A stretch of DNA of 64,000 bases from an uncultured bacterium (GCA_903839725.1 CAIMDG010000002.1:135739-199738), one strand, 5' to 3'. Counted from the stretch's first letter, positions 1-39,894 are shown. Numbers and translations are program-made. The notes: a model not told the origin generated them from the sequence alone.

Positions 1-1837
1 TAGCAGGCACAGTTGCACCTTCTGTATATGTACCACTGCCGATACCTGGATTACCTGAGACATTTATTCCACTAGAGGTTATAGTTACTTTGAAATCTGT
101 TGTTACCAAATCACTGTTATATGAACCAACCACAACACTATATATTCCATTTGGAATATTACTTGGGATGACAAATGTTATGGATGTACCAGTAGTATTG
201 TCGCTCGGTATGCCAGCAATTGTGTATGCTTTACCCGGTGAAGTTGCAACCTGACCATGTGTATATGGTATGAGATTCTTGAAGAATGACCATACGCCTC
301 CAAAGAAACCTGTGATCTTTTCTGTGAAAGAATGAGGTGTTGCCACAAGTGCAGATGAGTCTTGCGCTTCAGCAGTTGCCGATGAAATCAATCTTACAGA
401 GTTACCTGTTGGGGTAAAGTTTGAACCAACCATCTTGAAAGTATTTGCTACGGAAGAATTGGTCACTTTACTCAAATTACTTGCAACAGGTTTTGCAGTA
501 ACTGCTGGTATCCCTTCTTTTATGGTATCCATGGACATACATGCGGGCCAATGAGTTTCAGCTGTATCCTGACTAATTTTCTCTCCAAGTATACCTGCAA
601 TAACATATCCGCATGAAATAACATTAAATCTCTGGTGTTCAGGATAGCCATCTGAATTCATAATACTAAAAGTACTTGGGCGATAAATCGGTGTTCCATC
701 AGTGAATTTTATATAGTTACATCCTTGTATGTTTTCTGCACCATACAGATGATTATCCTTACTACTTCTATACTGCCCATATTTCAATACGTATTCACTC
801 GCACAGTTTTCTGTACCCGGTGTACCAACATCTCCACGTTTATATTCATCGCCCAATAATCCAAAAACGTGTCCCATTTCATGGATAACAACTTCACCTA
901 ATAGATAGTTGTATGAGTCTTTTGTTAGAAATGAGACTCTATTTCCAAACGAGGTGAATCCCAACATGTACGCTTCTGTAAGGCGATTAACTTTTGACAT
1001 CACAAGATACTCACGAGCATCACTACCACAACTCGAAGAATTGATCACTGTTGTTGCGGAACTTCTGTCATATAGACCTGTTGCAGGATCTATTGGCAAT
1101 GAAGGAGCATCGAATTTATTTAAATCAATATAAAATGAAAACTTATCAATATATGCCTTGAATGGATCAATCGCCGCAAAACCCTTATAGATAATAGTAT
1201 TAATCTGACTCAAATAATCACTGAGACTTGCTGATGGAACTGCATCTGAACTTCTCATAAACACAATCTTTATAGGGCCTCCTGGTTTTCCATTCACTCC
1301 ACCCAACGACACGCAGTTTGTAGCTTTAACAAAAGTTGAAGCTGCTCTTTCTTCTTTATCTGCTGCTATAGCTTTGAAATTAAAAGTATAACCACCATTC
1401 TTTGCTATAGACTTAATTACACTATCTTCTTTGTATGTGGTTGATAGATTGGGAGTCGGATCGTTATAAGTTGTGTTAAATTCAAGATAACCATGGAATT
1501 TCTCCTTATCACCACTTCTTCCTACTTTACTTGCATCCATATCATTAACCGCAGGTAATGGTATATCACCATTTACCGTTGTCATACTCCTTAGGCCACC
1601 CCATGTCTTATTTGAATTAGGGTAGCAATTGGTTGATAAAGAAAAATCAACTATCTGCAAAATGGATGGAGGATTTTGGACTGGCAATAGATTGTTACCG
1701 ATATAAGAAAAGGCGGACAGTGATTCTGGTTGATAACTATACGAACATGCCGCATGAGCAGACTTTATTCCAGGGAGAATAATACAAGCTAACAATAGAA
1801 AAACTGAAGTTACACTAACTTTGTATATAATTCTCAT
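1..1837 (-). CDS. Secreted HExxH zinc metallopeptidase, paralog of the 3980..6898 gene; its 3' (C-terminal) end runs off the window
   Basis: Reverse translation from the ATG at 1837 gives MRIIYKVSVTSVFLLLACIILPGIKSAHAACS, near-identical to the N-terminus of the 3980..6898 protein. An HEMGHVFGLLGDEY motif lies near 850-890. Nucleotides 1-540 are highly similar to 4860-5400, including an identical 29-mer tgggatgacaaatgttatggatgtaccag. The plus-strand ORF 909..1133 is antisense to this gene and looks spurious. Confidence 0.7.
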   Translation of the reverse strand, partial: MRIIYKVSVTSVFLLLACIILPGIKSAHAACSYSYQPESLSAFSYIGNNLLPVQNPPSILQIVDFSLSTNCYPNSNKTWGGLRSMTTVNGDIPLPAVNDMDASKVGRSGDKEKFHGYLEFNTTYNDPTPNLSTTYKEDSVIKSIAKNGGYTFNFKAIAADKEERAASTFVKATNCVSLGGVNGKPGGPIKIVFMRSSDAVPSASLSDYLSQINTIIYKGFAAIDPFKAYIDKFSFYIDLNKFDAPSLPIDPATGLYDRSSATTVINSSSCGSDAREYLVMSKVNRLTEAYMLGFTSFGNRVSFLTKDSYNYLLGEVVIHEMGHVFGLLGDEYKRGDVGTPGTENCASEYVLKYGQYRSSKDNHLYGAENIQGCNYIKFTDGTPIYRPSTFSIMNSDGYPEHQRFNVISCGYVIAGILGEKISQDTAETHWPACMSMDTIKEGIPAVTAKPVASNLSKVTNSSVANTFKMVGSNFTPTGNSVRLISSATAEAQDSSALVATPHSFTEKITGFFGGVWSFFKNLIPYTHGQVATSPGKAYTIAGIPSDNTTGTSITFVIPSNIPNGIYSVVVGSYNSDLVTTDFKVTITSSGINVSGNPGIGSGTYTEGATVPA

Positions 1838-1976
1838 GTATGTATGTTATTTTATAGTGATTATATTATACGATAAAAAAATGAATTCAGACAACAAGAT
1901 GCCCCACCGAAACGGAGCTTCGAGTGGGGCAAAAAGACAACAATCACCTAAGAAGTAGGTTCCGTCAGAATAATTA

Positions 1977-3476
1977 TTATGCCTGAGGTATTACTGGAGG
2001 CACTGGTGGTATAGGCGGAATTGTCGTAACTGGTGAAGATGCTGGTGTTGGAACAATGGGAGGAACAGGTTGCTGAACACTTGGCATAACTGGATTTGTT
2101 GTGAGACTACCCTTCTTATTATGCTTAACGACGAGATAGATAATCAGAGCAACAATCACTATAAAGAATACTACCGCTCCGACAATAGTCCACAATATTG
2201 TATAGAAAATATTGCTTGCATTAGAGGTTATCGAATTGACAGTTTGAGAAATAGAATCAACTGATGGGTAGTTCTGACCAGGTTGCTGTGATGCCGTTCC
2301 TAAATTGTTTGTATCAACAGGAACAGTTCCATTCATTGGGTTTGTTGCTGTTGAAGTAACTACTGCTGAGGGACTACTGACTTTAATGGTAAAGATGTCA
2401 CTCTTAGACATTACTTGTGACTTTGAATTATCATTACCAACTAAAAAGTATATAGTCCCTGCATTTGTATCATCTATGGTTAAACTGTCACTTCTTACTT
2501 GTGAAGCTTGACCCTCATATAACCAACCAATTTGCGCTCTAGTTGCCGAATGTATTTTCATGCCCGCATAACTTCCACTGTGATTATTACCATCCTCAAA
2601 AGAATTCGTTGCTTCAATGTATTTTGGCATTGATTCTGATGACTGAATTGAGTATTTGATGACATCCCCTTCTTTCACATCCATTTTGAAATAATCATAT
2701 TGACTCCCTAACTGATAGTGACTCAAATGATACATCCCGGGAGTTATTGGTACTGCGGTACTATATCCATTTCCACCAGTGACTTCTTTCCCAAGCATTG
2801 AATCCGTATTTGTCTTATCTACAGGATGTTCGGCTTGTTGGATAGCGTTGAAACTAGCCGCGAGAGAGGTCGCATCTGTTGCATCGTAGTATGTTCCACC
2901 TCCTGCGGTAGCTATACCTGAGAGTTGAGCGCGCGTTGTAGTGTCTGCACCAAGACCGATAACATATGTTTTTACTTTTATCCCCGCTGCCTTGAGTGCA
3001 GCTGCAGCATCAGCTGGATTGCCACCACAGTTCTCTTGACCATCGGTCATGAGAATGAGCACATTGTCTGCACCTACCGTAAAATCACCTGCTGATTGCT
3101 GGAGTGTATATGCAAGTGGTGTATACGAACCTACTGCTTGCAGGGAATCTACCTGGGTTGTTATAGCATTACGATCTGTCGTGAATGATTGGAGTAAATC
3201 TGTTTTAACACAAGCACTCGCCTTCGCAGTAATCTTTTCCTGCGCAAATGCACGTAGTCCGACTGAGGTATTAGCGTCGAGCGAAGCGAGAAGATCGGTT
3301 ATTGCTGATTTTGCAACATCAATACGTGGCGATCCCCCAAATGATTCTGTCATTGATCCAGAGGCATCAAAAACGATGAGAATATTCTCGTTCGTTGCTG
3401 CCACAGCACTATTAGAGAAGCTAATAATACCAGTAATAGATACGATCAACATTAGTAAAGCTATGTATTTTTTCAT
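1977..3476 (-). CDS. Membrane-anchored von Willebrand factor A (VWA) domain protein
   Basis: A signal peptide (MKKYIALLMLIVSITG...AVA) is followed by a MIDAS motif (ILIVFDASGSM) and a later LILMTDGQENCGG motif. A C-terminal TM helix (ILWTIVGAVVFFIVIVALIIYLVV) precedes a Pro-rich tail. The start is probably the internal ATG at 3476, not the ORF-track start at 3497. Confidence 0.75.
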   Translation of the reverse strand: MKKYIALLMLIVSITGIISFSNSAVAATNENILIVFDASGSMTESFGGSPRIDVAKSAITDLLASLDANTSVGLRAFAQEKITAKASACVKTDLLQSFTTDRNAITTQVDSLQAVGSYTPLAYTLQQSAGDFTVGADNVLILMTDGQENCGGNPADAAAALKAAGIKVKTYVIGLGADTTTRAQLSGIATAGGGTYYDATDATSLAASFNAIQQAEHPVDKTNTDSMLGKEVTGGNGYSTAVPITPGMYHLSHYQLGSQYDYFKMDVKEGDVIKYSIQSSESMPKYIEATNSFEDGNNHSGSYAGMKIHSATRAQIGWLYEGQASQVRSDSLTIDDTNAGTIYFLVGNDNSKSQVMSKSDIFTIKVSSPSAVVTSTATNPMNGTVPVDTNNLGTASQQPGQNYPSVDSISQTVNSITSNASNIFYTILWTIVGAVVFFIVIVALIIYLVVKHNKKGSLTTNPVMPSVQQPVPPIVPTPASSPVTTIPPIPPVPPVIPQA

Positions 3477-3521
3477 ATAACAACAATTATACCCCATTAA
3501 AATCTCTCAATTAACAAAAAC

Positions 3522-3549
3522 AAAACACCTTATGGGGATAAGGTGTTTT
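3522..3549. terminator. Hairpin terminator between the small membrane protein gene and the VWA gene
   Basis: aaaacacctta tgggga taaggtgtttt (11 bp perfect stem), followed on the minus strand by gtttttg. Confidence 0.7.
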
Positions 3550-3567
3550 GTTCAAAATTTACAAAGA

Positions 3568-3939
3568 CTAAAACTTGAAATTATTTGCAATAGATCCAAT
3601 GAGTGGCAATTGCTTCTGTTGACCACTCGCAGCATTGATGATACCCATGATCAAACAAATCAAATTAAAGAGACTCAGGAGTGGTACCAATATCCATCCG
3701 AGGACAGGAACTACTCCTATGAACATACCAACTACCCAAGAAATGATGAGTACCAAACCTTGTTTGATGTGGAACTTAACGAAAGGATCATTCTTGGCAT
3801 CAGTTATAAATGGAACAATGATAAGAATACCTAGGTAGGCCAAAATAGCCATGAGGGTATTATTTGTCTGACCCGCAGACTGTGGAGCAACTGGCGGAAC
3901 AGGTGCTACAGGTGGAACCTGATTTTCTAGTGGAGGCAT
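3568..3939 (-). CDS. Small integral membrane protein (3 predicted TM helices) with a Pro-rich N-terminus
   Basis: 123 aa with hydrophobic segments ILAYLGILIIVPFI, LVLIISWVVGMFIGVVPVLGWILVPLLSLF and the motif FHIKQG. A strong hairpin terminator follows at 3522-3549. Confidence 0.6.
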   Translation of the reverse strand: MPPLENQVPPVAPVPPVAPQSAGQTNNTLMAILAYLGILIIVPFITDAKNDPFVKFHIKQGLVLIISWVVGMFIGVVPVLGWILVPLLSLFNLICLIMGIINAASGQQKQLPLIGSIANNFKF

Positions 3940-3979
3940 ATGATTGATTACTATTACTTTATAATGACTTTATTATACC

Positions 3980-6898
3980 CTATTTCACACACATCTTCGT
4001 GGTCGCATTCAAGGTATATCCTGTAGCACATAAATATGTGGCGGTCGCAGGCGTTACTTTGACAGCAGTTGAGTAACATTTCTGACCCTTGAGCACATAT
4101 CCAGATGAGCATGAATATACGTACGAGAATAGTCCTGTTACTGATTTTGTATATGTAGAATTTGCAACAATACCTACAGTGTCAGTACTTTCACAATTCG
4201 TACCATTCAACGTTGACCCTGAAGGACAGGTATATGACGTAGTCGCTGCGACACTAACCTGAGTAGTTTGTGTGGTTGCGGGCGTCGTAACTGTTCCTTC
4301 GCTGGTAGGATTCTCGATACACATAGAGCCGGACAGTGTGAACCCTGCTACTGTACATGCGTATATTGGAGTTGCCGGGAGAACTTGTGGAGTACATGTA
4401 CTGCCGCCTCCCATAACAGGTGTAGGTGTACATGCAACACTGATCTGTGTACACGTTGTTCCTGAGAGTGAGTAGTTCGCAGATGGACAGGTGTAACGAA
4501 TAAGTGTCGCAGGAATTGAATTGACTGGTGTTGTTGTAGTAGAGACCGGAAGAATTTTTATGGTTGGTGCGTAGAAATGGAATACACATTTTGAACCGGG
4601 GACCAAAGTGTAATAACCATTGATACCAGCAGGAACAGTAGGACATGTATAGGTCAGAGTTGCAGCTATCGCCAACGAAGTTGCTGTAATACATACATTT
4701 CCAACTGAGACTTTGCCTGCAGCACAAATGACTACTGTTCTCGTACCTGTTCCACCGGTACCCATTGTTCCAATCGGAACACACTTATTACCTACGAGGT
4801 TATAGACGAATCCACCTGGTTTTGGAGCTGGACATGTATACGCCACAGTCGCTGCTACAGTCGCACCTTCTGAGTAGGCACCACTGCCGATAGTAGGATT
4901 GCCTGAAACAGTAACCCCACTTGAATTTATCGTGACCTTAAAACTCGTTGCCGCCCATTCACTGTTAAATGAACCAACAGCGACACTGTATACCCCGTTT
5001 GGCATACTGCTTGGGATGACAAATGTTATGGATGTACCAGCTGCACTATCACTAGATATATTTCCTATAACATATGTTTTACCTATGGAATTTGTAACCT
5101 GGCCATGTGTATATGGTATGAGATTCTTGAAGAATGACCAGACGGCTCCAAAGAAACTAGAAATCTTTTCCATGAAAGAGTGCGGTGTTGCCACGAGCGT
5201 AGATGGGTCTTGCGCTTCAGCAAGTGCGGTGACGGTAAATTGGATCGAATTATTAGTTGGTGTAAAGTTTGAGCCCATCATTCTAAAGGTATTTGGTACC
5301 GATGAATTATTTACTTTACTCAAATTACTTGCAACAGGTTTTGCGGTAACTGCCGGTATCCCTTCTTTTGTAGTGTCCATGGACATACATTCCGGCCAAT
5401 GAGTTTCGGCATGCGCCTTGTCTATAGGTTCACGCAATATTGCTGAAACAAGGTAACCACAAGAAACTACATTGAATCGAGCATCAACAATTCTCTTGAA
5501 AGTACCGTCAGAAAGTATTGTCGAACTTGCCATAGGCAATATATTCATCAAACTCTTTGAACTTGGTATGTACATCTCAAGGCCTGGATCTTGTGCCTTC
5601 TGATTACTTGACATGGTACCTTTGATAGTCGTTGAACCATATAGTAAATTATTTTTACTGCTTCTAAATTCATCAATTGGGTTCACGACACAATTTTCAT
5701 CATATTTTCCAGCGTTCTGACCATCATATACACCATGATAAACGTGACTACAATTATACTCATCCGTCACCCATCCAATTGAATGACCTGATTCATGAAC
5801 TGGAACAAGGTAATAATCTTCTTTCGATTCATAATGACCATTTACTATCTCACGTATAGAGAGGTTAGGTAGGTATGTATTCGAAGTATTTCTATTGTCA
5901 AAAGTAGATCCATTCAGATGACTTGTTTTTGAACCACTGTCTATTAACATAAATATACTTTCCTTATCATCCCCGTATGGTAAGAAAGTTGTACCTGCAA
6001 CATTCCCTTCGCAACTGAAACCAGAAACAGTGGTCGATGTTAAAGGTGGTGCATCAAAAGGAACTTTAATTTGTTGCGTGGTATAAACAAGCGGGTGCAA
6101 ATCAACATAGAACGAAAACTTTGATACGTATGACTTGTATGGATCAGTATTAATAAAGACACCTATAACCTTATCAACATAATCAAGGTAGTCTTTTATT
6201 GTAGGCAATGCCAAAGACAAACTAGGTCCACGCATAAATACAACCTTAATTGATCCCTTCCCTCCTAAATAAACACAATTAGATGCCTTTACGAAGGTTG
6301 ATGATGTGTGCACTATCTTTGGTTGACTTGTTGACGTTGCAGTAAAATTAACTGTGTAACCTCCATTTTTTGCAACTGTTTCTATCAAAGCATCTTCACG
6401 CTGATTTTGTATTGAAGTAGATAATCTACTACCATTTACACTATTATCTATCGACTCTAATCCCGAATAATCTCTACTATCACCGGACCTGCCAATTTTA
6501 GAAGGATGATCTCCGCCGGTGTTATCATTAAAATTAAAACTTCCATTCAATGTTGTAATACTACCCACTGATCCATTACTTCCCCAAGTTACGGGTGGCG
6601 AAATCGTATTATCTGCGGGGAAACAATCTTTGGTATTTGTTGGATATGTAAAATGAATATTCTGAAGAATTGATGGAGGATTTTGAACAGGAAGTGTTCC
6701 TAGCCCACCACTCAAAGATGGTCCAAAAGGGATCATGTTAGAATCTACCCATTGGTCCTGCATATAACCACTAGATGTGAGTGATTTTATTTGATAACTA
6801 TACGAACATGCTGCATGAGCAGATTTGATTCCAGGGAGAATAATAGAAGCTACAAGGAGGAGAACAAAAAACGCACTAGCTTTGTATATAATTCTCAT
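3980..6898 (-). CDS. Secreted HExxH zinc metallopeptidase (972 aa) with a C-terminal array of about 25 aa Cys-containing repeats
   Basis: Signal peptide MRIIYKASAFFVLLLVASIILPGIKSAHA. Motif VPVHESGHSIGWVTDEY (HExxHxxGxxxDEY). The C-terminus has at least 7 repeats of the type (A/T)YTCPxxxxGxxLxGxxC, for example AYTCPAPKPGGFVYNLVGNKCV, TYTCPTVPAGINGYYTLVPGSKCV and SYTCPSGSTLNGTNCE. Confidence 0.8.
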   Translation of the reverse strand: MRIIYKASAFFVLLLVASIILPGIKSAHAACSYSYQIKSLTSSGYMQDQWVDSNMIPFGPSLSGGLGTLPVQNPPSILQNIHFTYPTNTKDCFPADNTISPPVTWGSNGSVGSITTLNGSFNFNDNTGGDHPSKIGRSGDSRDYSGLESIDNSVNGSRLSTSIQNQREDALIETVAKNGGYTVNFTATSTSQPKIVHTSSTFVKASNCVYLGGKGSIKVVFMRGPSLSLALPTIKDYLDYVDKVIGVFINTDPYKSYVSKFSFYVDLHPLVYTTQQIKVPFDAPPLTSTTVSGFSCEGNVAGTTFLPYGDDKESIFMLIDSGSKTSHLNGSTFDNRNTSNTYLPNLSIREIVNGHYESKEDYYLVPVHESGHSIGWVTDEYNCSHVYHGVYDGQNAGKYDENCVVNPIDEFRSSKNNLLYGSTTIKGTMSSNQKAQDPGLEMYIPSSKSLMNILPMASSTILSDGTFKRIVDARFNVVSCGYLVSAILREPIDKAHAETHWPECMSMDTTKEGIPAVTAKPVASNLSKVNNSSVPNTFRMMGSNFTPTNNSIQFTVTALAEAQDPSTLVATPHSFMEKISSFFGAVWSFFKNLIPYTHGQVTNSIGKTYVIGNISSDSAAGTSITFVIPSSMPNGVYSVAVGSFNSEWAATSFKVTINSSGVTVSGNPTIGSGAYSEGATVAATVAYTCPAPKPGGFVYNLVGNKCVPIGTMGTGGTGTRTVVICAAGKVSVGNVCITATSLAIAATLTYTCPTVPAGINGYYTLVPGSKCVFHFYAPTIKILPVSTTTTPVNSIPATLIRYTCPSANYSLSGTTCTQISVACTPTPVMGGGSTCTPQVLPATPIYACTVAGFTLSGSMCIENPTSEGTVTTPATTQTTQVSVAATTSYTCPSGSTLNGTNCESTDTVGIVANSTYTKSVTGLFSYVYSCSSGYVLKGQKCYSTAVKVTPATATYLCATGYTLNATTKMCVK

Positions 6899-6996
6899 GT
6901 ATGTATGTTATTTGATAGTAATCAAATTATACAATACGGAACAATATAAATGAAGCACAATAAAAACTCCGAAGACAAGTCGACTCGGCGTATGTC

Positions 6997-7488
6997 CTAC
7001 CGTTCTTTATTAAGCTCCTTCTCTGTACGATCAGCCAAATCCATGAGGATGGAAGTATCTTCAAGACTAAAAACTCTCGGCTTCGTATCCTTCACGCAAA
7101 AAACACCAATAGCTTTTCCTGTCTTGTGATCCAAAAGCGCAATACCGGCATAAAATCTGATAAATGGAAAACCAGTAACTAGAGGGTTGTCAGCAAAACG
7201 TTCATCCTTCAAGGTGTCGTTGACGATAAACATATCTTTTGCAAGTAGCGCGTGGCCGCAGAATGATACGGCTCTCTCCCCTTCCTTTTGATCCAAACCT
7301 ATACAAGACTTGAACCACTCTCTTTCTGAATCAAGGATACTAACCATAGAAATAGGAACTTTCAATTTCTGGACAGCTTCTCTGGTCAACACATCAAAAC
7401 GAGGTTCTGGCTTTGTGTCCAAAATGCCTATGCGATGGACGGCTTCTATTCGATCTTTTTCATCTTGTGGAATGGGGGCTAATTGCAT
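6997..7488 (-). CDS. GAF domain protein
   Basis: 163 aa with the GAF-like pattern ...RFADNPLVTGFPFIRFYAGIALLDHKTGKAIGVFCVKDTKPRVF. Confidence 0.65.
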   Translation of the reverse strand: MQLAPIPQDEKDRIEAVHRIGILDTKPEPRFDVLTREAVQKLKVPISMVSILDSEREWFKSCIGLDQKEGERAVSFCGHALLAKDMFIVNDTLKDERFADNPLVTGFPFIRFYAGIALLDHKTGKAIGVFCVKDTKPRVFSLEDTSILMDLADRTEKELNKER

Positions 7489-7516: not shown

Positions 7517-8059
7517 CTAAATGACACTTTCCACACCCACAAACATTTTTATTTCATTATCTGTGCCAAAAACGGGAGAAATACGAAGTTTTGCATTATA
7601 CAAGGTCCCATCTTTTTTCTTATTTTTAACCTTGACCATCACAGACTTCTTTTCTACTTTTATCACCCGCCACAACTCTCTATAAAATTCCTTGGACATC
7701 TGACTACCCCATAGCGAGGGTTTCTTACCCAAAATTTCATGAAGTGAATATCCGGTAATAGATTCAACCATTGAATTGGCATAGAGGATAACTCCATCCT
7801 GGTCAGTAATAATGATTTGCTCAGTCACCCCTTTAAAGATCGAATTCAATGACCCACACCTCGTGCACTTTATACTCAATACTAAATCTGATTCATCTGC
7901 GATTGCGAGAAGTTTGCCACAATCACTACAACGAAATTCTTCTGAACTTATTTCATTTTTTAGGATGTTTTGATCCAATGTATTTGGGATCTCGAGGACC
8001 TCTGATGCAGAAATAATACCATAAGCTCTATTTCTGAGCCAATTGAACAGAATATCCAA
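7517..8059 (-). CDS. Zinc-ribbon (Com-like CxxC...CxxC) plus PAS domain protein
   Basis: CSDCGKLL...CTRCGS is a two-CxxC zinc ribbon. It is followed by a PAS-like segment ITDQDGVILYANSMVESITGYSLHEILGKK... Confidence 0.6.
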   Translation of the reverse strand: MDILFNWLRNRAYGIISASEVLEIPNTLDQNILKNEISSEEFRCSDCGKLLAIADESDLVLSIKCTRCGSLNSIFKGVTEQIIITDQDGVILYANSMVESITGYSLHEILGKKPSLWGSQMSKEFYRELWRVIKVEKKSVMVKVKNKKKDGTLYNAKLRISPVFGTDNEIKMFVGVESVI

Positions 8060-10767: not shown

Positions 10768-10791
10768 GAAATATATTGTAACATTATTCTG

Positions 10792-11180
10792 TGGAGATGC
10801 TGGGAATCGAACCCAGGTGCAATTGATATTCATCGAACGACTCTACAGCGATATCAGACCTTGTTCCACGAAGTGGATTTAATGATTGTGATCCAGAAAG
10901 TCTGAAAAACACACAATCACGATCTCATTCCGCCCGAAGACGGATTCAAGAACTGAAGTGAGAAGCTTCAATCCCCTACATCCAGATTATTACGCCAACA
11001 TCATAGTCAGGATCCCCATGAAGTAACGGCTGTCGTTAAACGAGAGCGAATGCGAAGTCCTTTTGACCAAAATATGGTGAAACGGTTGATTTTGCATTTA
11101 GAATTTCCATCAGATTTACGAGTTAATGGTGCTCGCGCTGCACGAACGAGAATGGTCAACTGTCGAAGCCGATCATCCCC
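10792..11180 (-). ncRNA. ssrA: tmRNA (SsrA), about 389 nt, CCA not encoded
   Basis: The 5' end GGGGATGATCGGCTTCGACAG matches the tmRNA consensus GGGGnUGAUnCnGGnUUCGAC. The 3' end is GCACCTGGGTTCGATTCCCAGCATCTCCA, with a T-arm and a 7 bp acceptor pairing with the 5' GGGGATG (one G-U). The gene lies directly beside smpB. A candidate tag reading frame starts at a GCA about 86 nt from the 5' end: GCAAAATCAACCGTTTCACCATATTTTGGTCAAAAGGACTTCGCATTCGCTCTCGTTTAA gives AKSTVSPYFGQKDFAFALV*. Confidence 0.8.
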
Positions 11181-11313: not shown

Positions 11314-11760
11314 TCAACGATCACTAAACTCCCTTCTCACCGTCCTATCAGTTTCGCGCTTTTTGATACTTTCGCGCTTGTCATGCTGCTTTTTACCACG
11401 CACAACAGCGACAGAGACCTTGAGAAGATTACCCTTATTATATATTGAAATTGGCACTATTGTCAACCCCTTACCTCCTTCAATATCAGCCAAACGCGCA
11501 ATTTCCTTCTTGCCGAGAATGAGTCGGCGATTCCTGCGAGGTTCATAGTCTTTCGGAGTATTATTCTCCTGATACGGAGGTACAAATGTATTTACCACAT
11601 AGGCCTCTCCCCCACGAACGATGACATATGAACCATCGAGTGAGCCCTGACCTTTCTTAATCGACTTTACTTCAAGACCAATCAGCTCAATACCAGCCTC
11701 GATTTTCTCGAGGATTTCGTAGTTGAAATGCGCCTTTTTGTAGTCGATCAATGTGGGCAT
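11314..11760 (-). CDS. smpB: SsrA-binding protein SmpB
   Basis: MPTLIDYKKAHFNYEILEKIEAGIELIGLEVKSIKKG... is the canonical SmpB N-terminus. The gene is adjacent to the tmRNA. Confidence 0.9.
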   Translation of the reverse strand: MPTLIDYKKAHFNYEILEKIEAGIELIGLEVKSIKKGQGSLDGSYVIVRGGEAYVVNTFVPPYQENNTPKDYEPRRNRRLILGKKEIARLADIEGGKGLTIVPISIYNKGNLLKVSVAVVRGKKQHDKRESIKKRETDRTVRREFSDR

Positions 11761-37578: not shown

Positions 37579-39894
37579 TTATGGAATCTGTACGAATGCG
37601 TTTGCTAGACCAGAAGTTATAGATACCGAGGCATCTTGAGTTGGGCCCGGACCATCAGCTGCACCTCCTGTACCAAAACTAATTCTTACAATACTAATTT
37701 TCTTGGCTGCTGACGTACCATTTGTGTTATCAACTGTGAAGTTGTAAGTAAATGTACGTGATGAGTTGACGAGGTAAGCGGCAACTGTGTCACCGGTAAC
37801 TGAGCCGGAAGCTGTAACATATGAAACTGTTGTTGAAGCGTCTGGACCAGATGATGTCGTTGTTGCAAGAGCAACATTGGCATTCTTACTGATGTAGATA
37901 GGATTGTCTCCTGTATTCACAACTGTGAATGAAATAGCGGGATGTGCGACACTCCATACACTCGAATCAGAGGCGATGACTACATTTCCCTTAGCTGAGG
38001 TTACATTTGTGATGACTGCTGCAGATGCAACTGGATCCTGAGAAACGATAGTAAATATCGCATCACTACTATCAGTAGCTAGATTAGACTTATCATACAA
38101 TATAGCCTTCACAGTAAACGAATTGTTATTACCAGCACTCATAGCTACAGGAACGGTCCATATATATGAACCTGTATTAGGAACAACATCTTCAGCAATC
38201 AACTCAACAAAATCATTTGTCTGAGCTCCGACTTTGTAATGAAGTTCCAATAACACTCCCGCTGTTGATGGTGCTCCAGTGGTATTCCAACGAATAGTCA
38301 TGGGACCATTCTCTGTATATCTCTCTCCCCCATTTGGACTTAACAATGTGATAGTAGGCTTTGAAAAATCAACACTTACCTTAAGACTATCTACAGGATA
38401 TAGAGGAGTTCCATAGGTGCTATTGATATCCGTTCGATATATAATCTCGGTTGCTTTCGCAATATTAACACCATTTGGATTCGCAGCATTTTCTCTACTC
38501 AAAGTAGTTAGTACGGTGAAGGTACGTGATGATCCTGCTGGTACAATAAAATACGAAGATCCGTCACCGGTAAGAGTGCTTGGATTTGCTGTTGTAGATG
38601 TAATGCGTGGTAACAATTCATTTGAGAATGAAATAGAAGAAACTTGGCCTGGACTAGTAATATTTATTGGTGATTTGAAATAAATCGGAACATTACCTGC
38701 GGTCAACGTAAATTTGAAACTTGCAGGATAACTACTGATTGAACCGTCTGTTGCAAGAGTAGGATTATTCCATCCTACCGTAACAGACATATCACTTAAT
38801 CTAGGTTGAGTGGTAACTACATTACCAATAGTAAACGGAGCATCACTTATATCCTTGAATCCACCACTTTGAACGATCACACCATTTCGGTCGGCTTGAT
38901 ATAGTTCAATCAAATACTTTCCAGCGATAATATTTGCTGGTATTTTCCAAGTAAATGTACCCTTCGTAAAGTGAGCTATCCCAATCTTGGTAACAGGAGA
39001 ACCAGTATTAGGACTACTTGGTCTCAGTTCAATATATACAGAAGAATTGAGTATTGGACCAATATCTGTCACCTGATTTATTGATCTTGTCCACTTAATC
39101 ACCATATCTTGCCCAACGTTATACACTTCTCCTCCATTTGGAGTGGAAACTGTAATTGGAGATGGTGGGATTGGTTGTCCGGTGAAAGTCTTTGTAAATG
39201 TAAGATTCTCGAGACCTGCTGTAATAGTAGAGATTGTTCGCTGTTCTCCAGAATAATAATTTATTTTTGAAATTTTGAATACTTTGGTACCACGTGCAGT
39301 TATCGGTAAATTCATGAACACTGAATGAAATACAAATGTTCGTGAACTTCCTGCAGGAATAACTTTTTGATTAACAGCATCTCCCGCCAACGATGCAGGG
39401 GTTATTGTTGTAGGAGCACCTATTCCCAACATCACACCAAAATCAATAAGTGTATTCCCTGTAATAAATATATTTGTATTTGATTGATTGGATATAGTGA
39501 TAGCTATATCAGCGTTGTATCCAACAATTATATTATTAGAGATAACAGGATCACCTACAGAAATAGAACTGGCCGAGACAGTTACTGCTGTAGTCAAACT
39601 TGGAACACAGGAATATCCTACTGGACACTTTGGAACTACTGGCAGTGTTGTACACGAATATCTTTCTGGACATGTAATAGAACCGGGACCAGATGTCACT
39701 TCAACCATCCCGCTTGAAACTGGCATTGCTGAGTTCTCAACTAATGTATTGTTTAAACTATTAGCAGATGCTGCAGTGAGATTCGCGTTACCAGAAATGG
39801 CAGCGATTGATATTCTCCCCTGTGTTGGTGATGAATACACTACGAACACAAGAGCAGTAAGAACGAGGACATTGGCTATGTGGTTTTTAAACAT
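37579..39894 (-). CDS. Large secreted Ser/Thr-rich surface protein (771 aa) with SPNGGE...IxW beta-sandwich-like repeats
   Basis: The signal/anchor MFKNHIANVLVLTALVFVVYSSPTQG is paralogous to the N-terminus of the 39945..41261 protein (shared ...YSSPT...ISGNANLxAAS...NN). Repeats TVSTPNGGEVYNVGQDMVIKWTRS and LLSPNGGERYTENGPMTIRWNTTG. Low GC. Confidence 0.65.
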   Translation of the reverse strand: MFKNHIANVLVLTALVFVVYSSPTQGRISIAAISGNANLTAASANSLNNTLVENSAMPVSSGMVEVTSGPGSITCPERYSCTTLPVVPKCPVGYSCVPSLTTAVTVSASSISVGDPVISNNIIVGYNADIAITISNQSNTNIFITGNTLIDFGVMLGIGAPTTITPASLAGDAVNQKVIPAGSSRTFVFHSVFMNLPITARGTKVFKISKINYYSGEQRTISTITAGLENLTFTKTFTGQPIPPSPITVSTPNGGEVYNVGQDMVIKWTRSINQVTDIGPILNSSVYIELRPSSPNTGSPVTKIGIAHFTKGTFTWKIPANIIAGKYLIELYQADRNGVIVQSGGFKDISDAPFTIGNVVTTQPRLSDMSVTVGWNNPTLATDGSISSYPASFKFTLTAGNVPIYFKSPINITSPGQVSSISFSNELLPRITSTTANPSTLTGDGSSYFIVPAGSSRTFTVLTTLSRENAANPNGVNIAKATEIIYRTDINSTYGTPLYPVDSLKVSVDFSKPTITLLSPNGGERYTENGPMTIRWNTTGAPSTAGVLLELHYKVGAQTNDFVELIAEDVVPNTGSYIWTVPVAMSAGNNNSFTVKAILYDKSNLATDSSDAIFTIVSQDPVASAAVITNVTSAKGNVVIASDSSVWSVAHPAISFTVVNTGDNPIYISKNANVALATTTSSGPDASTTVSYVTASGSVTGDTVAAYLVNSSRTFTYNFTVDNTNGTSAAKKISIVRISFGTGGAADGPGPTQDASVSITSGLANAFVQIP

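What the first reader, a model, noticed from the sequence alone, without database searches (positions are those of the whole stretch)
1..7488. Surface-protein cluster: two paralogous HExxH metalloproteases with Cys-repeat tails flanking a VWA anchor protein; evidence of recent duplication or gene conversion
The minus-strand array, read from high to low coordinates, is GAF protein, metalloprotease 2 (972 aa), a 3-TM Pro-rich protein, a membrane-anchored VWA protein and metalloprotease 1 (truncated by the window edge). The two proteases share the unusual motif HExGHxxGxxxDEY and near-identical signal peptides. Their nucleotide sequences are far more similar in the 3' halves (1-540 versus 4860-5400, with identical 29-mers) than in the catalytic halves, which suggests gene conversion of the C-terminal domain. 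The C-terminus of metalloprotease 2 carries at least 7 tandem repeats of about 25 aa, each with two cysteines ((A/T)YTCP...C), a likely disulfide-stabilised adhesion or stalk module. Together with the VWA protein, this looks like a dedicated host- or surface-interaction module.
Basis: seen in the sequence. Interest (0 to 1): 0.55.

Follow-up and report, generated by a model that had tools for sequence, protein, structure and literature searches.

The report
Mosaic M64-like secreted protease paralogs
Two neighbouring genes of an uncultivated, probably ultra-small (CPR) bacterium encode secreted zinc proteases distantly related to the gut-bacterial IgA proteases (family M64), and recombination has kept their front and rear ends alike while their catalytic cores are anciently different; this is a tidy example of modular evolution, not a new kind of system.

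Summary
Window 2-1837 (MP1, cut by the window edge; 915 aa in full) and 3980-6898 (MP2, 972 aa) are minus-strand paralogs flanking a DUF4870 membrane protein and a membrane-anchored VWA protein.

Recombination is well supported. At identical amino acids, codon identity is at chance level in the catalytic core (0.38). It is 0.65 in the middle domain, 0.89 in the last 74 codons and 0.72 in the leader. Catalytic-domain and middle-domain trees disagree with 99-100% bootstrap. MP2's positional ortholog in a related genome lacks the tail entirely.

The tail holds nine two-cysteine beta-hairpin units, not strict tandem repeats, and matches no known family.

The functional link to the VWA protein is not supported: it recurs in none of 23 other loci, and terminator-like hairpins separate the genes.

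Verdict: a new variant of a known kind, of modest interest.

The parts
2..1837 (-). MP1, M64-like metalloprotease. Only the first 612 of 915 aa lie in the window. Signal peptide 1751-1837, N-domain 1430-1750, catalytic domain 515-1429, middle beta-sandwich 2-514.
   Evidence: The full length is P0002 in L001, which is 100% identical to the window.
842..883 (-). MP1 zinc-binding motif HEMGHVFGLLGDEY. The candidate Met-turn SIMN is at 656-667.
   Evidence: H, E, H and D-E-Y are invariant in a 28-sequence family alignment.
1901..1918 (-). Terminator-like hairpin between the VWA gene and MP1. A promoter-like site follows at 1865-1894.
   Evidence: These are consensus matches only, and their number is no greater than in shuffled sequence.
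1977..3497 (-). Type I membrane protein: signal peptide, VWA domain with MIDAS motif DASGS, a beta-rich domain, a TM helix and a Pro-rich cytoplasmic tail. The start codon is ambiguous: the gene call in L001 gives 491 aa, not 506.
   Evidence: VWA, E=4e-14.
3518..3553 (-). Strong terminator-like hairpin (16-bp stem followed by a T run) between the DUF4870 gene and the VWA gene.
3568..3939 (-). DUF4870 three-TM protein with a Pro-rich N-terminus. A 62%-identical homolog lies near the MP2 ortholog in L024.
3980..6898 (-). MP2, M64-like metalloprotease, 972 aa. Signal peptide 6812-6898, N-domain 6398-6811, catalytic domain 5363-6397, middle beta-sandwich 4850-5362, Cys-hairpin tail 3983-4849.
5756..5797 (-). 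MP2 zinc-binding motif HESGHSIGWVTDEY. The candidate Met-turn SLMN is at 5543-5554 and the conserved NVVSCGY motif at 5453-5473.
5087..5221 (-). Insert of about 45 aa in the middle domain (ATPHSF...SSFFGAVWSFF...THGQ). It has a predicted short helix and low model confidence, and is not hydrophobic enough to be a TM segment.
   Evidence: pLDDT below 50; Kyte-Doolittle maximum 0.8; many relatives lack it.
3983..4849 (-). Tail of nine two-Cys beta-hairpin units separated by Thr/Pro/Gly-rich linkers. Cys pairs: 689/706, 725/736, 752/771, 804/816, 823/835, 848/860, 891/902, 930/941, 957/970.
   Evidence: No Pfam family matches.
4857..5410 (.). Recombination tract shared with MP1 (window 9-562), 76-85% nt identity. 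Covers the end of the catalytic domain and the middle domain.
3983..4204 (.). Youngest tract (MP2 aa 899-972). Proportion of synonymous differences (pS) is 0.07-0.19, with exact 39- and 57-nt runs shared with the MP1 3' end, which lies outside the window.
6780..6936 (.). 5' tract shared with MP1 (window 1719-1875), 84% identity. Covers the signal peptide, the first residues of the mature protein, and 38 nt upstream of the start codon.
6997..7488 (-). Small GAF-domain protein. With the PAS/Zn-ribbon gene at 7517-8059 it is syntenic with L024. No evidence shows it belongs functionally to the proteases.

Best explanation
MP1 and MP2 are Sec-secreted, multi-domain zinc endopeptidases of a divergent, mainly CPR/Patescibacteria-borne branch of the igalysin (MEROPS M64) family of metzincins.

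Each protein has five parts:
- a cleavable signal peptide (AHA|A);
- an N-terminal domain with no family match;
- a catalytic domain that binds zinc through H-E-x-x-H and the Asp of DEY, backed by a conserved Met (S-I/L-M-N);
- an Ig-like beta-sandwich;
- a stalk of disulfide-type two-Cys beta-hairpins.

The two catalytic cores belong to different, anciently separated subtypes. MP2's core is orthologous to a tail-less protease (P0004) in a related genome.

The leader (with its 5' UTR) and the C-terminal sandwich plus stalk have been exchanged between the two genes by recombination or gene conversion. This happened more than once, most recently over the last ~74 codons. The two enzymes therefore display different catalytic heads on the same frame.

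Inferred, not shown: they digest extracellular or partner-cell proteins. The shared frame would serve a common, lineage-specific job such as export, attachment or spacing from the cell.

The VWA, DUF4870 and GAF genes are neighbours, not demonstrated partners.
For: Family assignment:
- HExxHx6DEY is present in 132 of 153 relatives.
- A 28-sequence family profile hits the M64 structures 3P1V (E=1e-6), 4DF9 (2e-5) and T. ramosa IgA protease (7e-4).
- 21 of 28 members hit Pfam Peptidase_M64, best E=2.4e-8.
- The AlphaFold model of MP2 168-512 has pLDDT 83.8 and pTM 0.84.
- All 17 Foldseek hits at E below 1e-3 are M64 structures.
- The motif, the Asp third ligand and the Met-turn are described for igalysins in PMC12237041.

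Secretion: the only hydrophobic segment is N-terminal.

Recombination:
- pS is saturated (0.7-0.95) in the core, 0.35-0.6 in the C-terminal half and 0.07-0.19 at the 3' end.
- Codon identity at identical residues is 0.38 in the core (chance 0.44), 0.65 in the middle domain, 0.54 in the tail, 0.89 at the 3' end and 0.72 in the leader. Fisher tests give p=1e-5 (core versus middle domain) and 2e-11 (core versus 3' end).
- In the catalytic tree MP2 groups with P0004 and P0010 (bootstrap 100) and away from MP1. In the middle-domain tree MP1 and MP2 are sisters (100) inside a clade with P0003 and P0019 (99). The cores of P0003 and P0019 group elsewhere, at 91 and 73.
- P0004 is a complete gene ending after the core, and it is syntenic with the window's DUF4870, PAS and GAF genes.

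Not an assembly artefact: the same arrangement occurs in an independent assembly that is 100% identical over 11.8 kb. The proteins occur on 16 and 15 contigs. The longest exact shared run is 57 nt.
Against: - MP2 alone hits no Pfam or NCBIfam model, and MP1 scores below the M64 gathering threshold (17.8 versus 26 bits).
- The Gly of the igalysin motif is shifted by one position in MP1 and MP2.
- Foldseek TM-scores to M64 structures are only about 0.43.
- Nothing tested here shows proteolysis, substrates, localisation or disulfide formation.
- The tail model is of low confidence (pLDDT 63.5, pTM 0.32).
- The organism is inferred to be CPR only from the taxonomy of distant relatives.
- In the sister cluster (L002) the middle and tail domains show no recent conversion. 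Ongoing homogenisation is therefore shown for this one gene pair only.
Confidence: 0.78

Rival explanations
1. A single head-swap or domain-shuffling event rather than repeated gene conversion. An MP1-like gene duplicated, and the catalytic core of one copy was replaced once by a P0004-type core. The graded similarity would then reflect different levels of constraint.
For: - P0004, the positional ortholog of MP2, has no middle domain or tail and a different N-terminus.
- A 717-aa protein in L002 carries the same middle domain and tail behind a non-protease head.
- Proteins that share one middle-domain clade have cores in at least three clades.
Against: Synonymous-site identity falls into at least three distinct levels (0.54, 0.65 and 0.89) within the shared part. 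The middle domain versus 3' end comparison gives p=5e-4. One event followed by clock-like decay does not predict this. The two mechanisms are not exclusive.
Confidence: 0.3
2. No recombination. The C-terminal half is simply under stronger purifying selection than the catalytic half.
For: Protein identity is higher in the middle domain (73%) than in the core (36%).
Against: Selection on the protein does not preserve synonymous codons. At identical residues the core is at chance level (0.38 versus 0.44 expected), while the 3' end is at 0.89. The domain trees are incongruent at 99-100% bootstrap. Similarity also extends 38 nt upstream of the start codons.
Confidence: 0.04
3. The five genes form one dedicated surface or host-interaction module, in which the VWA protein anchors or partners the proteases.
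For: - All genes are on the same strand with short gaps.
- The VWA protein has an extracellular MIDAS domain and a TM anchor.
- The DUF4870, PAS and GAF genes recur near the MP2 ortholog in L024.
Against: - No VWA homolog lies near the protease in L024, L002-L005 or L006-L023.
- Terminator-like hairpins lie in both gaps flanking the VWA gene.
- The synteny with L024 can be explained by the relatedness of the two genomes.
Confidence: 0.12
4. The proteins are adhesins or pseudo-enzymes whose metalloprotease domain is no longer catalytic.
For: Long stalk-like tails and Ig-like domains are typical of adhesins.
Against: The zinc ligands, the catalytic Glu and the conserved Met are intact in MP1, MP2 and nearly all relatives.
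Confidence: 0.07

Closest known systems
Igalysins / MEROPS family M64: Thomasclavelia ramosa IgA protease (IgAse), Bacteroides BF3526 (PDB 4DF9, 9QDI) and BACOVA_00663 (3P1V)
   Same: - Zinc motif HExxH followed by Asp seven residues after the second His, then EY.
- A conserved downstream Met.
- A catalytic domain followed directly by a beta-sandwich domain.
- A secreted, multi-domain architecture.
   Different: - Only 11-15% identity to these proteins.
- Below or absent at Pfam's threshold.
- The Gly of the motif is shifted by one position.
- Extra conserved motifs (FSFYxDL, NC, NVxSCGY).
- No sortase/LPXTG anchor, no C-type-lectin N-domain and no His/Cys zinc-binding domains.
- A Cys-hairpin stalk instead.
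- The hosts are environmental CPR-type bacteria, so IgA is an implausible substrate.
Concerted evolution / gene conversion in bacterial surface-protein paralogs (general phenomenon, from background knowledge)
   Same: Mosaic paralogs in one locus, with tracts of different age and incongruent domain phylogenies.
   Different: Here the conserved parts are the leader and the C-terminal frame, while the enzymatic core stays divergent. No silent cassettes or repeat-mediated switching were seen.
Sushi/CCP and EGF-like modules
   Same: Local motif Y-x-C-x-x-G-Y-x-L-x-G-x-x-C. It gives a weak profile hit to poxvirus complement-control proteins (E=5e-4) and to the EGF-like FXa_inhibition model (E=1.1).
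   Different: The units have two Cys, not four or six. They are 20-30 aa long, lack the conserved Trp, and give no Pfam Sushi or EGF hit. This is a resemblance to one hairpin only.

Membership tests
Peptidase M64 / igalysin (metzincin clan) | Zinc motif with two His, a catalytic Glu and an Asp third ligand at His2+7 (HExxHxxxGxxD), followed by EY | tested here: met
   MP1 has HEMGHVFGLLGDEY and MP2 has HESGHSIGWVTDEY. H, E, H, D, E and Y are invariant in 28 relatives. 132 of 153 relatives have HExxHx6DEY. The motif definition comes from PMC12237041.
Peptidase M64 / igalysin (metzincin clan) | Gly at His2+4, that is, one extra residue before the Gly compared with other metzincins | tested here: inconclusive
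   MP1 and MP2 have Gly at His2+3, and the extra residue comes after it. Many clade members (for example HEVGHAFAGLLDEY) have it at His2+4.
Peptidase M64 / igalysin (metzincin clan) | Met-turn below the zinc site | tested here: inconclusive
   A nearly invariant Met lies in S-I/L-M-N about 70 residues after the motif (M451 in MP2). Its three-dimensional position could not be inspected.
Peptidase M64 / igalysin (metzincin clan) | Significant sequence-profile match to M64 members | tested here: met
   The family profile scores E=1e-6 against 3P1V, and 21 of 28 members hit PF09471. For the single sequences the test fails: MP1 scores 17.8 bits against a cut-off of 26, and MP2 has no hit.
Peptidase M64 / igalysin (metzincin clan) | Catalytic-domain fold closest to solved M64 structures | tested here: met
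Peptidase M64 / igalysin (metzincin clan) | Cleavage of the IgA hinge | not testable with these tools
IgA is an unlikely substrate for an environmental bacterium, and it is not a family-wide property either (PMC12237041).
VWA domain protein (the neighbouring gene) | VWA fold with the MIDAS motif DxSxS | tested here: met
   Pfam VWA scores E=4e-14, above its cut-off. DASGS is at aa 44.
Sushi/CCP or EGF-like repeats (for the tail) | Four (Sushi) or six (EGF) Cys per unit of about 60 or 40 aa, and a match to the family profile | tested here: not met
   The units have two Cys and are 20-30 aa long. There is no Sushi or EGF Pfam hit even at E up to 10.
Gene conversion / recombination between paralogs (process) | Heterogeneous synonymous divergence along the genes, and incongruent domain phylogenies | tested here: met
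   p=1e-5 to 2e-11; bootstrap 99-100.

The most novel reading that the evidence does not exclude
In this CPR sublineage the leader plus the Ig-like domain and Cys-hairpin stalk form a lineage-specific display frame. Recombination keeps the frame uniform, and different enzymatic or binding heads are mounted on it: two M64 subtypes here, and a non-protease head in the 717-aa protein of L002. The stalk would be a new disulfide-bonded repeat fold that ties these effectors to the cell's own envelope or to a partner cell.
Probability: 0.2. Interest if true: 0.6.

Novelty: new variant of a known kind. Interest (0 to 1): 0.36.

Why it matters
The finding assigns a family and a plausible chemistry to a set of large secreted proteins of uncultivated ultra-small bacteria that standard annotation leaves blank. 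About 400 cluster representatives fall into this set.

It extends the M64/igalysin family, which drew attention in 2025 for its gut IgA proteases, into environmental lineages where the substrate must be something else.

The gene pair is also a clean, testable case of mosaic evolution: ancient catalytic cores on a recently homogenised frame. That pattern points to the frame as the part under lineage-specific functional pressure.

Tried and rejected
- Pfam and NCBIfam on the whole proteins gave nothing for MP2 and only sub-threshold hits for MP1.
- Pfam at E up to 10 on the tail, the middle domain and the N-domain separately gave nothing meaningful.
- The word-index homolog search with full-length MP2 returned only 4 proteins. 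With the tail alone it returned nothing, not even the query itself, presumably because of composition filtering. The distribution of the tail outside this family therefore remains unknown.
- Foldseek of the middle-plus-tail model against the PDB found no match at E below 0.01, and that model is of low confidence.
- Tandem Repeats Finder found no DNA-level repeat in the tail.
- Searches for VWA, DUF4870 and GAF homologs next to family members in L002-L023 (tblastn and phmmer) found none. Only L024 shares DUF4870, PAS and GAF.
- A test for recent conversion in the sister cluster (P0003 versus P0019) was negative for the middle domain and tail.
- The promoter and terminator scan found no more sites than in shuffled sequence, so the operon structure stays open.
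- The literature search found no paper linking M64 to CPR bacteria.
- The exact taxon of the window could not be determined. The single genome-collection scan found only relatives at 24-30% identity.
Full report
**What is there**

ORF listing and translation confirm five minus-strand genes:
- a GAF protein at 6997-7488;
- MP2 at 3980-6898 (972 aa);
- a three-TM DUF4870 protein with a Pro-rich N-terminus at 3568-3939;
- a VWA protein at 1977-3497, with a signal peptide, the MIDAS motif DASGS, a TM helix near aa 427-461 and a Pro-rich C-terminal tail;
- MP1 at 2-1837, which runs off the window.

Pfam supports the GAF, DUF4870 and VWA calls.

A metagenome contig (L001) is 100% identical to the window over 11.8 kb and supplies the rest of MP1, giving 915 aa (P0002). 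MP1 therefore carries the same Cys-rich tail as MP2.

The rest of the window is ordinary chromosome: SecY, EF-G, PGK, RecJ, and tmRNA with SmpB.

**The protease domain**

Neither protein passes a curated family threshold. MP2 hits nothing, and MP1 scores 17.8 bits against Peptidase_M64, whose cut-off is 26.

An exhaustive profile search with the catalytic domain found 421 cluster representatives at E up to 1e-3 and 288 at E up to 1e-10. Of the 153 examined, 132 keep HExxHx6DEY.

A 28-member alignment shows an invariant H, E, H, D-E-Y. It also shows several conserved Cys, a nearly invariant Met in S-I/L-M-N, and an NVxSCGY motif. That profile hits the solved M64 proteins 3P1V (E=1e-6) and 4DF9 (2e-5), and the T. 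ramosa IgA protease (7e-4). Of the 28 members, 21 hit Pfam M64 individually.

The 2025 structural paper on IgAse (PMC12237041) defines igalysins (M64) as metzincins. Their motif is HExxHxxxGxxD, with an Asp as the third zinc ligand and a Met-turn. The only deviation in MP1 and MP2 is that the Gly sits one position earlier.

Genome hits for the family are nearly all CPR/Patescibacteria MAGs (Taylorbacteria, Parcubacteria, Paceibacterota, Wolfebacteria and "Saccharibacteria") at 24-30% identity. This is the basis for calling the host a probable CPR bacterium. It is an inference.

**Other domains**

The only strongly hydrophobic stretch in MP1 and MP2 is the N-terminal signal peptide, with an AHA|A cleavage site seen by inspection. 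There is no C-terminal anchor.

The region after the catalytic domain models as a beta-sandwich with pLDDT around 80. It is interrupted by an insert of about 45 aa of low confidence (ATPHSF...SSFFGAVWSFF...HGQ) that contains a short helix. A related sandwich follows the catalytic domain in 68 of 153 relatives, and many of them lack the insert.

The tail models as strings of short beta-hairpins at pLDDT 60-75. It has nine consecutive Cys pairs with Cys-Cys spacing of 11-19 residues. No Pfam family matches, no significant structural neighbour was found, and there is no DNA-level tandem repeat. A weak resemblance to a Sushi or EGF hairpin fails the membership test.

Only about 11 of the 153 relatives carry three or more such units. 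A 717-aa protein in the sister cluster (L002) carries the same sandwich and tail behind an unrelated head.

**Recombination**

Sliding Nei-Gojobori estimates give saturated synonymous divergence in the N-domain and core (pS 0.7-0.95). The values are 0.35-0.6 through the middle domain and tail, 0.07-0.19 in the last ~70 codons and 0.3 in the leader.

A test independent of protein constraint looks at codon identity at positions where the amino acid is the same:

| Region | Codon identity |
|---|---|
| Core (chance expectation 0.44) | 0.38 |
| Middle domain | 0.65 |
| Tail | 0.54 |
| 3' end | 0.89 |
| Leader | 0.72 |

Fisher tests give p=1e-5 for core versus middle domain, 2e-11 for core versus 3' end, and 5e-4 for middle domain versus 3' end.

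Exact shared runs reach 38 nt inside the window and 57 nt beyond its edge. The 5' similarity block continues 38 nt upstream of both start codons.

Neighbour-joining trees disagree:
- By catalytic domain, MP2 groups with P0004 and P0010 (bootstrap 100) and not with MP1. P0003 groups with P0012 (91), and P0019 with P0074 and P0060 (73).
- By middle domain, MP1 and MP2 are sisters (100) inside a clade with P0003 and P0019 (99).

P0004 is a complete gene that stops right after the catalytic domain. It lies beside homologs of the window's DUF4870 (62% identity), PAS/Zn-ribbon (50%) and GAF (55%) genes. It is therefore MP2's positional ortholog, and MP2's leader and C-terminal frame are MP1-like acquisitions.

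The paralogs in L002 show no recent conversion in the middle domain or tail. Recent homogenisation is thus demonstrated only for the pair in this window, while older head/frame shuffling is implied for the sublineage.

Assembly error is excluded by the independent identical assembly and by the short length of the exact repeats.

**The cluster idea**

No VWA homolog lies near family members in any of the other 23 loci. Only this lineage and L002 have clustered paralogs. A 16-bp-stem terminator-like hairpin (3518-3553) and a second one (1901-1918) fall exactly in the gaps around the VWA gene. The scan as a whole, however, is not enriched over shuffled sequence. The VWA link is therefore unsupported, though not disproved.

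**Mechanism and verdict**

Shown:
- homology to M64 and a matching fold;
- an intact active-site motif;
- a secretory leader;
- a mosaic history.

Inferred:
- zinc endopeptidase activity on extracellular or partner-cell proteins;
- disulfide bonding of the hairpins;
- a common export, attachment or spacer role for the shared frame.

This is a divergent, unannotated branch of a known protease family, with a new accessory architecture and a clear recombination history. It is a new variant of a known kind, of modest interest (0.36).

Noticed in passing
window 5087-5221 (MP2 aa 560-604); the same insert lies in MP1 at about window 239-373: The middle beta-sandwich is interrupted by a conserved insert, ATPHSF...FFxxxWSFFxxLIPxxHGQT. 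The flanking His and Gln are nearly invariant, and a short hydrophobic or amphipathic helix lies inside it. The model confidence is low, the segment is not hydrophobic enough to be a TM helix, and many relatives lack it. Its role is unknown.
   Followed up: partly
L024 1-7301: A related contig holds a tail-less, complete ortholog of MP2 (P0004, 667 aa). It sits next to homologs of the window's DUF4870, PAS/Zn-ribbon and GAF genes (50-62% identity). No VWA gene is present; a 348-aa membrane protein lies in between instead.
   Followed up: yes
L002 7810-17788: The sister cluster holds a 717-aa protein with an unrelated head but the same middle domain and Cys-hairpin tail, then a 1040-aa and a 1163-aa M64-like protease, with two small genes between them. 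This points to heads being exchanged on a common frame.
   Followed up: partly
window 1977-2090 (C-terminal tail of the VWA protein) and 3860-3939 (N-terminus of the DUF4870 protein): Both neighbouring membrane proteins carry similar Pro/Val-rich segments (PVPPIVPTP...IPPIPPVPPVIP and VPPVAPVPPVAP). The VWA segment is predicted to be cytoplasmic. M64 IgA proteases cut Pro-Val bonds in a Pro-rich hinge, so the resemblance is curious, but it was not tested.
   Followed up: no
window 1838-1875 and 6899-6936: The 84%-identical 5' block of the two protease genes continues 38 nt upstream of both start codons. The translation-initiation region, and possibly the promoter-proximal region, is therefore shared too.
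   Followed up: partly
window 3518-3553 (-): A hairpin with an unusually long, perfect 16-bp stem followed by a T run sits between the DUF4870 gene and the VWA gene. It probably ends an MP2-DUF4870 transcript.
   Followed up: no
window 10789-11180 (-) and 11314-11760 (-): A tmRNA gene (Rfam, 99 bits) lies directly next to smpB.
   Followed up: no
window 3453-3497: The start of the VWA gene is ambiguous. The longest ORF begins MGYNCCYMKKY (506 aa), but the public gene call uses a later start, giving 491 aa.
   Followed up: no
window 37579-39894 (-): Another large protein (771 aa) has a Kre9/KNH-like Ig domain and no other family match. It is possibly another secreted or surface protein.
   Followed up: no
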